A DNA stretch of 64,000 nt, taken from the NCBI GenBank assembly GCA_951406725.2, contig OX597821.1, positions 36,456,001 to 36,520,000 on the forward strand, read 5' to 3'. Position numbers and translations under genes: made by a program. The notes beneath the pieces were generated by a model that saw only the letters and a list, made by a program, of their open reading frames with translations, had not been told where the DNA came from and did no database searches. Below are positions 5,705 to 43,396 of the stretch, piece after piece; position 1 is the stretch's first letter, and each line of letters starts with the position of its first letter. The stretch comes from Octopus vulgaris. Its lineage: Eukaryota.

Positions 5705-5758
5705 AACAAAAACTGTCCGACGAACGGGAACGTGAAACTCCGAGTAACAGGTTTTGTT
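5705..5758 (+). ncRNA. Type I hammerhead ribozyme-like motif (U4C core variant)
   Basis: Stem I aacaaaaactgt/acaggttttgtt (11 of 12 bp), core CCGACGA, stem II acg-ggaa-cgt, GAAA, stem III region actccgagt, GUA site. Confidence 0.75.
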
Positions 5759-5824
5759 GAATTTCTGCTGTTTTTAAATAAATTATATATATATATATAA
5801 TATATATATATATACAATATATAT

Positions 5825-5883
<59 letters not shown>

Positions 5884-6059
5884 ATAAATATTAGGGAATA
5901 AAGCCAAATTTACAGGGAAAAAATCAGATTTAGGATTAAATCCAATTTTATAGTAAAATATTATATAATATTAATTCGAGACAAAACCACTATTTTGCAA
6001 AACAAACAAGGAAAGACTTAATCAATACATAAAAATTTTTAATATAAAGAAATAAACCG

Positions 6060-6102
6060 CCACTACAATCGTTTCATGTCTTCAATGACATTCGTCAGGT
6101 GG
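6060..6102 (-). ncRNA. Type I hammerhead ribozyme motif (inverted copy of 6343-6385)
   Basis: Exact reverse complement of the 6343-6385 motif. Confidence 0.85.
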
Positions 6103-6342
6103 ATTTTCGATCTCCTAATCTGTTTTAATTTGTACACCCCTCTGTCCGGCATTCGTCATGATTGATCGCTAGCCACTACACATTCTTTATTTTCTCTCCT
6201 TGTTTCTTTCTGTGTTCCTTTCTGTGGAATAGCATATTAAAAATTTTTATGTATTGATTAAGTCTTTCCTTGTTTGTTTTGCAAAATAGTGGTTTTGTCT
6301 CGAATTAATATTATATATTAAACAGATTAGGAGATCGAAAAT

Positions 6343-6385
6343 CCACCTGACGAATGTCATTGAAGACATGAAACGATTGTAGTGG
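6343..6385 (+). ncRNA. Canonical type I hammerhead ribozyme motif
   Basis: ccac-CTGACGA-atgtc(attgaa)gacat-GAAA-c gatt g-TA-gtgg. All core nucleotides and three stems are present. Confidence 0.85.
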
Positions 6386-6481
6386 CGGTTTATTTCTTTA
6401 TATTAAAATTTTTTATGTATTGATTAAGTCTTTCCTTGTTTGTTTTGCAAAATAGTGGTTTTGTCTCGAATTAATATTATA

Positions 6482-6572
<91 letters not shown>

Positions 6573-6581
6573 GTGTGTGTG

Positions 6582-6790
6582 TAGGGAGAATTCACAAATA
6601 AACAAAAGACGAAGACAGGTGGTGTAAACAACAAACAGATGTATTAGTTTAATGCTCGGGAAGTGAAAAAAGTCTTCAACGTTTCGAGCCTATGCTATTC
6701 CACAGAAAGGAACACAGAAAGAAACAAGGAGAGCAAATAAAGAATGTGTAGTGGCTAGCGATCAATCATGACGAATGCCGGACAGAGGGG
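6582..6790 (-). mobile_element. Penelope-type terminal repeat, CTGTNGA-hammerhead family
   Basis: Homologous to 7238-7447, 35238-35425 and 58521-58710; decayed hammerhead at 6673-6710 on the minus strand; ends at a microsatellite. Confidence 0.7.
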
Positions 6791-7235
6791 TGTACAAAAA
6801 AAGTTTAGAAATTATAAAAAAGTTACGAAAAGTTCAAAAGTTTCAAAAGCTTCTTGGTGTATTGGAGCGATTTTTCATCAACAGGAGTCCAGTATAATCC
6901 ATGGGCAGAAGAGATATATACACCCACCCACACCACGCTGTTGTAATGCTTCAAACAGCTTACAAGGACGCTGCCATATGCAAAACACAAATTTACGGGT
7001 GGTTTCCACGCTTTAAAAATTGACACTTGTCGCTTGAGAACCAACCTCGTTCAGGGCGACTGTCGATCTCCCGAACGAATGAAAACATCGAGAAAATTCA
7101 TGAACTGATATTGGAGAACCACCAGCGAACATTTGATGAATTTGTTGATATGACTGGTGTGTCCTGGAACCCCTGCCAACGAATTCTGAGCGAGGAATTA
7201 CGAATGAAAATAGATGCAGCAGAATTTGTGGTCAG
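6790..7235 (+). mobile_element. Mariner transposase 5' fragment (pseudogene)
   Basis: Translation SLENQPRSGRLSISRTNENIEKIHELILEN..RT..E...GVSW..CQRILSEELRMK resembles the mariner N-terminal HTH region. Confidence 0.8.
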
Positions 7236-7237
7236 GA

Positions 7238-7447
7238 CGCCATGATAGATCGTTAGCTCCTTCACGCATTTTTTTCTCTCCTTGTTTCTCTCCTTATTTT
7301 TTTTTCTGTGTATCTTTCTGTCGAAGAGCGTAGGCTCGAAACGTAAAAGACTTTTTCTATTTCTATTCCTGAGCGCTATACTAATACATTTGTTTGTTTG
7401 TACTCCACCCGCCTTCGTCTTTTGTTTATTTTCGTAAACTTTCCCGT
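7238..7447 (+). mobile_element. Penelope-type terminal repeat with hammerhead variant at 7313-7350
   Basis: tcttt-CTGTCGA-a-gagc(gtag)gctc-GAAAC-GTA-aaaga; ends in a (TATG)n tract. Confidence 0.75.
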
Positions 7448-41244: not shown

Positions 41245-41279
41245 ATTCAGACAAATAAGAATATTTATTATTATTTGAA

Positions 41280-41345
<66 letters not shown>

Positions 41346-41369
41346 GTATCTTTGTTTATGTTTTCGCAG

Positions 41370-43060
41370 GTAACACGAAACCAAATGGAACATCAAGTTT
41401 TCGTCCATTAAGTTCGTCTGAAAGGAGAATGATACCTTTTTCAATAATTGATGAAAAACCAATGATTCGGGATCAAACAGAGCCGCTGATTACTAGTTCG
41501 ATACGGAAACAATCTGAAGAAGATATAATTGATTACAGTGTTCATAAAAACTACGATATCTTATCACGAGCCTCTGCTTTTCATTTGGGTTCCAGGCGCA
41601 CACACGTTCCGGATAAAGCATTCAATGGTCCACCAGCTTTACACTGTCTGTCGGAACTTACAAACGGGCTGGCCACTCCGAAATCAACTGATATATCTAA
41701 GCTTCACCAGACGTCTTCTAAAAATGGAAACCATATTTTAAACGATGATATCATGATAAAGAGTGCGAGATCTAGCCCTCTCATGAACAATGAGCTCGCT
41801 TTAGCTCTAAAAGGCAAAGACTTTAAATACATGTTTGATAAAACAGCTTGTGATAGTTTTCGTGGTAGCAAAAATTATATAAAGTCAGAAATTGGGGAGA
41901 AATATAAAGCTGATAGCACCATGCCACTTTTAGTGACGCCATATAGATCTCCAACAATAATGTCTCCAAACATTTCTCCGGTTTCATCCTTCTGGAGTTC
42001 TTTCCGACCAGAAATGGCACATAATAAACTACCATTTAAGTCATTCTCCACGTCTAATCCTATCTATTTTCCAAGCCCACCAATACCGCCGATTTATCCT
42101 ATACCAAGTATTTACCAGTATTCTGGTTTCCAGTGGCAACTCTTCCCTCCGACAGCATTCCATCAGACTTCAATATCTGGCCATAATTCACCTTCGTCAA
42201 TATCTGGTCCACTAACCGCTAGCATCTCAAGTATTTCTGACCGTCACCATATGCACAGGTCATCTCTACAACCCGAGCAAGTATTGAACCTTAGCAAACC
42301 AAAAATCGACCCAACCACAGGGAACATGAGGGGTTATCGATCACTACCATACCCACTGAAGAAAAAAGACGGTAAAATGCATTACGAATGCAACGTTTGT
42401 TATAAGACATTTGGACAACTGTCGAATCTGAAAGTTCATTTACGCACTCACACGGGTGAACGTCCTTTTGTATGCCAAACCTGCGGCAAGGGTTTCACAC
42501 AGCTAGCTCATCTTCAAAAGCATCATCTAGTACACACTGGCGAAAAGCCTCACGAATGTCAATCCTGTGGTAAACGCTTCAGTAGTACAAGTAACCTTAA
42601 GACACACATGAGACTCCACAGTGGAGAAAAACCATTTCAATGTAAACTTTGCCCGTCGAAATTCACACAATTTGTTCACTTGAAATTACATAAAAGATTG
42701 CACACAGATGAGCGACCTTATGAATGTCCCAACTGCAATCGAAAATATATTAGCCCCAGCGGTTTAAAAACACACTGGAAGGCTGGGAATTGCGTTTCTC
42801 CTGATGGCATCAGCTTTGATATGACAAAATTGATTGATGGCAGTGCAGATTCTGAATTTGATCTTGATGTTGGGATGGATGGTGAAAACGAATCGGACAT
42901 TCAAGAGAAACTGAATATAACAGTTCAATCGCTAGACACCACCGATGATATATCGAGGATCAGTGACGATGACGATAACGAACATGATCTAGAAGAAGGC
43001 GAACTGATCAGGGCAGAAATAGATCTTGATGCAGACGATGAAATGGGAGAAGAAGAAGAG

Positions 43061-43092
<32 letters not shown>

Positions 43093-43396
43093 ACTTGAGG
43101 AAGATGAACATGAAGAATGTGCAGATGAAAATAAAGCAGCCAATGGCAATAACACCATCAATAATAATAATACTAATAGTAACAATGACAATCCAAACAG
43201 GTTGTCTTTCTCATTGACACCTATGAAGAAGTTTAGTAGAGAGGGGTACAATATATTTCAAAACCATATTCCTTCAACATCGCTAATATTAAAAGATAAC
43301 TGGACAAATGGAACTAACAAAATAGACGAAAAACCGCCAATATCCATCTTTGAAAACATGGAAACATGCACATCTACAACAGACGAAATTCATTAA
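41370..43396 (+). CDS. PRDM1: PRDM1/Blimp-1 terminal coding exon: Pro/Ser-rich region, four C2H2 + one C2HC zinc finger, acidic tail
   Basis: ttttcgcag acceptor, phase 1, in frame with ORF 41429-43396. Contains the Blimp-1 signature [23 protein letters not shown]...[40 protein letters not shown], and a final CxxC..H..C finger. Confidence 0.97.

What the first reader, a model, noticed from the sequence alone, without database searches (positions are those of the whole stretch)
5963..6797. Complex A-B-C-A'-B'-A' rearrangement with a block copied from the neighbouring element
Seen: A (5963-6045) and B (6045-6125, hammerhead) recur inverted as A' (6234-6317) and B'A' (6319-6483). Block C (6129-6235) is the reverse complement of 6691-6797 with one mismatch. 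It carries that copy's private variants (gaatagcata, atcaatcatgacg), which the other family members at 7238 and 58521 lack. Inference: C was templated from local DNA ~500 bp away during insertion, by repeated template switching or Pol theta-like repair.
Basis: partly seen in the sequence, partly recalled or inferred. Interest (0 to 1): 0.7.

Follow-up and report, generated by a model that had tools for sequence, protein, structure and literature searches.

The report
Penelope insertion sealed with neighbouring DNA
A young jumping gene (Penelope type) sits here as two mirror-image pieces with a flipped 108-letter copy of nearby DNA between them; about 1 in 22 two-armed copies of this family carry such a local patch, likely made when the two freshly copied ends were joined, which gives a clue to how these elements finish inserting.

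Summary
Observation confirmed. A-B-C-A'-B'-A' is not a rearrangement of host DNA. It is one very young Penelope-like insertion in (TA)n: a tailed arm (5881-6131) and a tail-less inverted arm (6320-6483), the layout of 128 of 133 two-armed copies in this genome. Block C is a 107/108 inverted copy of 6691-6798, the best of 40 scored genome hits, joined by 3-nt microhomologies. New here: it recurs. Six of seven long foreign inserts at arm joints match their own flank end to end (control 23 of 692), or 6 of 133 copies. The arms lack a 1.1-1.6 kb GT-AG intron that the longer copies retain, so they are cDNA of spliced sense RNA. The two arms share their source variant (98 of 102). Best model: one RNA copied from both target strands; the two cDNA ends are joined, sometimes after template switches onto RNA and flank DNA. 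Enzyme (RT or Pol theta) and timing are not shown, and read support could not be tested. Like L1 templated insertions and R2 snap-backs. This scan noted the same patch in other genomes, mostly as one-offs.

The parts
5781..5880 (.). (TA)n target microsatellite, left flank
   Evidence: the family inserts in (TA)n
5881..5962 (-). 'Tail' U: present on one arm only; likely the stretch between two RT start sites
   Evidence: 128 of 133 two-armed copies have exactly one tail, none has two; PMC11167929 main text
5963..6131 (-). Left arm A+B: pLTR copy, element sense on the minus strand; exon-exon junction at 6111/6112
   Evidence: intron in the longer copies
6060..6102 (-). Minimal type-I hammerhead motif, left arm
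   Evidence: descriptor match; no Rfam hit
6129..6236 (+). Block C: inverted copy of 6691-6798; shares TTT (6129-6131) with the left arm and ATA (6234-6236) with A'
6234..6317 (+). Extra A': ends exactly at the tail-less end point, directly before the right-arm tip; the only such joint among 173 loci by this pattern
6320..6483 (+). Right arm B'A' (tail-less); exon-exon junction 6333/6334; hammerhead motif 6343-6385, predicted cut after 6381
6484..6582 (.). (TA)n(TG)n right flank
6585..6791 (-). Older repeat copy of an abundant family (1645 candidates; four copies in the window, 75-84% to this one); it supplied block C
6691..6798 (-). Donor of block C, 208-315 nt from the insertion's right end; includes 7 nt beyond the repeat family's alignable edge

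Best explanation
This is one young Penelope-like insertion with two head-to-head arms that lack the parent's intron and have a locally copied block at their joint; the arms were likely reverse-transcribed from one spliced RNA on both cut target strands, and the block was likely added by template switching while the two cDNA ends were being joined. Steps: (1, inferred from PMC11167929) the element's enzyme cuts both strands of a (TA)n tract. (2, shown: arms intron-less, one tail, shared variants; inferred: same RNA molecule) each target 3' end primes reverse transcription, one at the tail site and one 82 nt further in, and both run to or near the RNA 5' end. (3, shown) the two ends carry the same sequence, so they cannot pair at length; 87 of 133 joints overlap by 1-14 nt. 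(4, inferred; preferred path at this locus) the right-hand strand jumped back to the RNA's internal start site and made A' (a partial tandem). It then folded back via ATA onto its own resected flank at 6691, copied 108 nt away from the break, let go and paired via TTT with the left arm. The copying enzyme is either the RT or a host end-joining polymerase such as Pol theta; I lean to a mix (RT for A', either for C). The product is inert.
For: Local donor is best and carries locus-specific sequence. Family census of 172 loci: 133 two-armed, 128 with exactly one tail, none with two; 39 single arms of both kinds (16 tailed, 23 tail-less); either arm can be the truncated one. Eleven joints are 40 nt or longer. 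Six are end-to-end copies of the local flank (L038 = this locus, L071, L086, L091, L189, L206; 108-379 nt, 3 inverted and 3 direct, from either side). One is a piece of another repeat family starting at its (TA)n edge (L122). Two are the element's own upstream sequence (L096, L137); two are decayed or mis-parsed (L153, L200). Control: 23 of 692 random flank anchors have such a match; 6 of 7 gives p=9e-9. A single-armed copy with no palindrome, L190, has the same kind of 142-nt inverted flank copy. Arms are RNA-derived: the longer copies carry a GT-AG intron of 1095-1571 nt at this point (10 measured; all 14 loci L239-L252 hold the intron-exon 2 junction). Of 44 tips that reach the commonest end point, 21 add a C that is not in the parent, including 4 of 9 single-armed copies facing (TA)n, as a 5' cap would give. 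Arms share the subfamily variant in 98 of 102 scored copies (p=2e-20) and share rare variants. Insert-donor and arm-arm divergence do not differ. The parent ORF of 820 aa has RT and C-terminal GIY-YIG-like motifs by eye, with many open copies at 95-98%.
Against: No read or contig confirms the junctions. The strand and order of the switches cannot be fixed: an all-top-strand path (left tip to right-flank top strand or nascent RNA, then fold-back on its own A) gives the same sequence. The middle A' matches the left arm, not the right, at one site, but that site is a hotspot (discordant in 7 of 10 copies carrying it). Arm concordance also fits fold-back copying, later arm-to-arm conversion, or one active source per cell; 4 of 102 are discordant. 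108-379 nt is long for Pol theta patches (recalled). No random expectation was computed for the microhomologies in this AT-rich sequence. In two-armed joints the extra C can come from the other arm. Pfam does not recognise the parent ORF. The sample was chosen by an intact B core, so copies with both arms truncated are missing.
Confidence: 0.68

Rival explanations
1. Later palindrome break: a normal two-armed copy inserted first, extruded a cruciform, was cut at its centre and was repaired by end joining with templated inserts (C from the flank, A' from an arm).
For: Near-perfect 164-nt arms with a tiny spacer are break-prone (established knowledge). One-sided central truncations are common. 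Insert-donor divergence is nominally lower than arm-arm (0.89 vs 1.34%). A' could be a DNA copy of the right arm plus one flank base.
Against: L190 has the same patch with no second arm. A' ends exactly at the tail-less end point. L122 holds the end of another repeat family, as an RT jump would give. Patched joints keep near-full tips. The age difference is not significant (p=0.17).
Confidence: 0.2
2. The RT jumped from the element RNA onto nascent host RNA of this locus, so C is an RNA-templated capture rather than a DNA copy.
For: RT jumps to other RNAs are known for R2 and L1 (PMC11371274, passages). L122 suggests RNA capture. Two of the seven local inserts (this one and L071) contain the same repeat family in the same orientation as the tail-less arm. 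A zinc-finger exon lies 35 kb downstream on the + strand.
Against: Donors lie on either side, in either orientation and always within about 1.4 kb of the joint, as expected for resected DNA. No insert shows splicing. Transcription of the donor was not tested.
Confidence: 0.07
3. Assembly artefact: a chimeric or fold-back read duplicated local sequence.
For: Inverted repeats beside microsatellites are hard to assemble (PMC8557442, passages).
Against: C differs from its donor at one base, where C keeps the family state. The arms differ at one base. The junctions are clean microhomologies at element-defined positions. Six other loci on other contigs show the same pattern.
Confidence: 0.05

Closest known systems
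Endonuclease-bearing Penelope-like elements with inverted pLTRs, one-sided tail, partial tandems, 5'-UTR intron and (TA)n targeting (PMC8557442 passages and section 15; PMC3846280 passages; PMC2377424 passages; PMC11167929 main text)
   Same: Head-to-head arms, one tail, minimal type-I hammerhead, intron just after the likely start site, microsatellite target, RT plus C-terminal GIY-YIG-like ORF.
   Different: The tail is 82 nt (30-40 in the papers) and the intron 1.1-1.6 kb (75 bp in Penelope). Here over 200 short arms have lost the intron, whereas these papers stress intron retention; PMC3846280 favours self-priming on an antisense template. Flank copies at the inverted joint are not described in the passages read, though host-DNA spacers between pLTRs are (Pen1_Av, Pen3a).
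L1 twin priming with internal duplication, template switching and 'templated insertions' (10.1101/2024.08.27.596794, section 4 read whole; PMC11702581 passages)
   Same: Two primers on one RNA, inverted arms joined by microhomology, extra switches at the inversion point, copies of nearby genomic DNA.
   Different: In L1 the overlap of the two cDNAs is short (median 22 bp); here it is nearly the whole arm. L1 templates are typically under 250 bp and within 15 bp of the site (22 of about 3,600, not searched for systematically); here they are 108-379 nt, up to about 0.9 kb from the element's edge, in 6 of 133.
R2 'snap-back' and 'extra template' 5' junctions (PMC11371274, passages)
   Same: The cDNA 3' end primes more synthesis on cDNA, nearby target DNA or another RNA before the junction closes.
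   Different: In R2 the junction is cDNA to target DNA; here it is cDNA to cDNA, in natural germline insertions.
Pol theta templated insertions, MMBIR/FoSTeS (recalled)
   Same: Short microhomologies; direct or inverted copies of DNA near a break.
   Different: No RNA step. Here the break ends are element cDNA, and the tracts are long for Pol theta alone (recalled).

Membership tests
EN+ Penelope-like element insertion | Parent ORF with RT and GIY-YIG endonuclease | tested here: inconclusive
   An 820-aa ORF follows exon 2. RT motifs (IDIDNYY, PMGAPDS, YRDD) and a C-terminal VVY..YIG / CYLC / CRH region are seen by eye (motif labels recalled). No Pfam hit, no PDB hit. The 5 homologues found carry PF26215 or PF28514 (their meaning was not looked up).
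EN+ Penelope-like element insertion | pLTRs in inverted or partial-tandem arrangement | tested here: met
   133 of 172 loci are two-armed and head-to-head; longer copies are flanked by the same pLTR.
EN+ Penelope-like element insertion | Tail on one end only | tested here: met
   128 of 133 have one tail, 5 none detected, 0 two. The sequence past the tail runs on into the ORF in L246.
EN+ Penelope-like element insertion | Minimal type-I hammerhead motif in the pLTR | tested here: met
   Descriptor match, 0 in 10 shuffles. No Rfam match. Cleavage not testable.
EN+ Penelope-like element insertion | Intron retained after transposition | tested here: inconclusive
   Met for the longer copies (14 of 14; 36 of 42 matches stop at the donor site). 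Not met for the short arms, including this locus, which carry the spliced junction.
EN+ Penelope-like element insertion | AT-rich or microsatellite target | tested here: met
   (TA)n on both sides here and in nearly all loci printed. A target-site duplication cannot be read in (TA)n.
Retrotransposon templated insertion (L1/R2 type) | Insert is a copy of DNA near the site, placed at the cDNA junction | tested here: met
Retrotransposon templated insertion (L1/R2 type) | Formed during integration | tested here: inconclusive
   Divergence is compatible and L190 lacks a palindrome; no allele or de novo data.
Pol theta-mediated end joining | Dependence on POLQ | not testable with these tools
   Needs genetics.
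MITE / DNA transposon with long TIRs | Moves as a DNA unit with fixed symmetric ends | tested here: not met
   Arms are asymmetric, occur singly, have copy-specific joints and carry a spliced junction.

The most novel reading that the evidence does not exclude
Penelope's head-to-head inverted pLTRs arise because one capped, spliced, sense RNA is copied twice, once from each cut target strand at the two RT start sites, with strand displacement and no RNase H. The two identical cDNA ends must be sealed by end joining, which patches about 1 in 22 joints with 100-400 nt of flank. For this family that would rule out the antisense self-priming model. It would also recast intron retention: start-site transcripts are spliced but can only yield short dead arms, while long copies come from unspliced read-through RNA.
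Probability: 0.4. Interest if true: 0.75.

Novelty: new variant of a known kind. Interest (0 to 1): 0.52.

Why it matters
How Penelope-like elements make their inverted ends and keep their introns is described as unresolved (PMC8557442 section 15; PMC3846280 passages). This family gives about 170 near-identical natural products in one genome: one tail per pair, matched arms, precise intron loss, a likely cap mark, and a measurable rate of flank copying at the joint. These are direct predictions for the existing in vitro system (PMC11167929). The single locus is an inert scar; its value is as one member of a countable class. It also shows these elements seeding small local duplications and inversions.

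Tried and rejected
Read support: contigs of 5 runs and about 3% of 3 raw-read runs were laid on the junction region. Nothing spans the B|C, C|A' or A'|B' joints, but the raw reads did not cover the B core, one run laid nothing, and the runs need not be the assembled individual. This is no test either way. Rfam gave no hammerhead match, and minimum-energy folding does not give the hammerhead. Pfam, PDB and a homologue search with the endonuclease part did not name the parent protein. Two independent RNAs drawn from a mixed pool: rejected by arm concordance. Pure fold-back from the tailed arm for all copies: rejected by tail-less singles and by copies with a short tailed arm and a full tail-less arm. 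MITE or whole-unit DNA transposition: rejected by the spliced junction. C templated from a ribozyme-cut RNA end: its ends do not lie at a hammerhead cut site (by eye). The raw rate of local matches after a tip (11 of 173) is near the control rate (23 of 692), so only the test on long inserts between arms is informative; L096, L137 (own palindrome), L196 (tandem duplicate) and L154 (about 500-nt duplication, ambiguous) were left out of the count. L122's skipped 112 nt is not GT-AG. Literature searches for flank copies at Penelope joints or intron-less Penelope copies (listings only, apart from the papers named) showed no such report. The library lacks most subscription papers, and no supplements were read; Supplementary Fig. 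4d of the L1 preprint bears on template distances.

Full report
Observation. The blocks are as described: 164-nt inverted arms (163/164), an extra A' (6234-6317) and block C (6129-6236), which is the reverse complement of 6691-6798 with one mismatch. The window lies in a 2.8-Gb, microsatellite-rich animal genome; I recall such repeats from octopus, which was not tested. Among 40 scored of 1645 candidates the local copy is the best match to C. None of the 28 best distant copies fetched has the donor's edge with its flank, or the 13-mer holding the first 'private' variant; two have the second variant. At the one mismatch C keeps the family base and the donor differs, so C is not a mechanical paste of the assembled donor.

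What A and B are. A+B has many 100% copies genome-wide. A 27-mer from B occurs 208 times, and a 20-mer 216 times. I held 174 distinct places after dropping 11 duplicate fetches, dropped one segmental duplicate, and could parse 172. Of these, 133 are two arms head to head; 128 of the 133 have an 82-nt tail on exactly one arm and none has two. Thirty-nine are single arms, 16 tailed and 23 tail-less. Either arm can be the truncated one. This is the inverted-pLTR-with-tail layout described for Penelope-like elements (PMC8557442, passages and section 15; PMC3846280, passages). It fits the in vitro result that a Poseidon protein cuts and extends both strands and starts at two internal sites that bound the tail (PMC11167929, parts 1-2 of 4). 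B holds a minimal type-I hammerhead motif. Rfam and energy folding do not recover it, which fits short-stem-III motifs thought to act as dimers (PMC6765202, passages).

The parent, and proof of an RNA step. Two copies extend about 70 nt past the usual tip. Searching with that extension found longer copies in which the first 27 nt of the arm are separated from the rest by a GT-AG intron of 1095-1571 nt (10 measured; 14 of 14 loci hold the intron-exon 2 junction). Exon 2 runs on through the tail into an ORF. An 820-aa open copy shows RT and C-terminal GIY-YIG-like motifs by eye, though Pfam does not name it. The short arms, including both at this locus, carry the exact spliced junction. Both subfamily variants occur in intron-bearing copies and in spliced arms, so intron loss happened more than once. 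Of 44 tips that reach the commonest end point, 21 add a C that the parent lacks, including 4 of 9 single arms facing (TA)n. I read this as a cap mark (inference, small numbers). A 5'-UTR intron next to the start site is known for Penelope (PMC2377424, passages). The papers read stress retention and, in PMC3846280, favour an antisense template; spliced arms need a sense template.

One source for both arms. A one-base subfamily variant agrees between the arms in 98 of 102 scored copies (31 unscored; p=2e-20), and rare variants are shared within copies. Two RNAs drawn from a mixed pool are therefore unlikely. Copying one RNA twice is my preferred reading. One active source per cell, fold-back in some copies, or later conversion between arms remain open.

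The joint. Of 133 joints, 87 overlap by 1-14 nt, 7 are blunt, 28 have 1-28 extra nt and 11 have 40 nt or more (no null model for the overlaps). Of the 11, six are end-to-end copies of the copy's own flank: this locus, L071, L086, L091, L189 and L206, 108-379 nt, three inverted and three direct, from either side. One (L122) is a piece of another repeat family starting at its (TA)n edge. Two are the element's own upstream sequence, and two are decayed or mis-parsed. Against 23 of 692 random anchors with a comparable local match, 6 of 7 foreign inserts gives p=9e-9. The raw rate per tip is not above the control, so only this conditional test counts. A single-armed copy, L190, has a 142/142 inverted flank copy at its tip. 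Insert-donor divergence is 12 of 1354 (0.89%) and arm-arm divergence 197 of 14675 (1.34%), p=0.17.

This locus. The junctions are TTT (B|C), ATA (C|A') and 0-2 nt (A'|B'), depending on whether the right tip carries a three-T variant seen in L207. A' ends exactly where tail-less arms end and abuts the right tip; no other of 173 loci matched that pattern, though other partial tandems exist (L183). If only resected 3' overhangs serve as DNA templates, the order B-C-A'-B' needs an RNA template for A'. The right-hand strand makes its arm, jumps to the RNA's internal start (A'), snaps back on its own flank 208 nt away (C) and pairs with the left tip. An all-top-strand path, using the opposite flank strand or nascent RNA, gives the same letters and is not excluded. 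The enzyme is not identifiable from sequence.

Comparison and novelty. The patch works like L1 templated insertions and twin-priming switches (10.1101/2024.08.27.596794, section 4 whole; PMC11702581, passages) and like R2 snap-back junctions (PMC11371274, passages). This scan has noted flank copies at Penelope joints in several other genomes, mostly as one-offs (unchecked notes). My searches showed no paper on this for Penelope-like elements, within a library that lacks most subscription journals. Read support remains untested. Verdict: real, a new variant of a known kind, inert at this locus, and useful as mechanistic evidence; interest 0.52.

Noticed in passing
L239-L252 (e.g. G000:C5:127789455, C4:98410751) versus the short arms: Longer copies keep a 1.1-1.6 kb 5'-UTR intron while over 200 short arms carry the exact spliced junction. 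Only two spliced copies extend about 70 nt upstream of the usual tip (L096, L137), with both arms ending at nearly the same point, perhaps a second start site.
   Followed up: partly
L142:4945-5066 (G000:C9:583444): The joint holds about 120 nt of another repeat family that begins exactly at its (TA)n edge (best match on C4, 98%, with 112 nt skipped); possibly an RT jump to another element's RNA.
   Followed up: partly
L086/L147, L206, L154: Extra local duplications beside insertions: a short inverted flank copy at the outer junction (L086), an inverted duplicate in the flank itself (L206), and an approximately 500-nt direct duplication ending at the target site (L154).
   Followed up: no
L153 (G000:C11:62718903): The tailed arm is interrupted by many short insertions and expanded (TA)n/(TTA)n runs while the other arm is 99% intact; unexplained.
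   Followed up: no
window 5713-5750 (+): A second, different minimal hammerhead motif with a CCGACGA core just left of the target microsatellite; likely an older Penelope-like end.
   Followed up: no
window 6800-7230 (+): Decayed mariner-like transposase piece (weak HTH_48 match, E 0.056, below the cut-off) between two inverted copies of the donor repeat family (6585-6791 and 7238-7440).
   Followed up: partly
window 41279-43396 (+): Large exon with four to five C2H2 zinc fingers, resembling Blimp-1/PRDM1 (recalled); the finding may lie upstream of this gene or in one of its introns.
   Followed up: no
G000-wide: Dozens of long open frames at 95-98% to the parent RT region, so the family looks recently active; Pfam does not recognise the protein, which has an asparagine-rich linker like the rotifer elements in PMC3846280.
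   Followed up: partly
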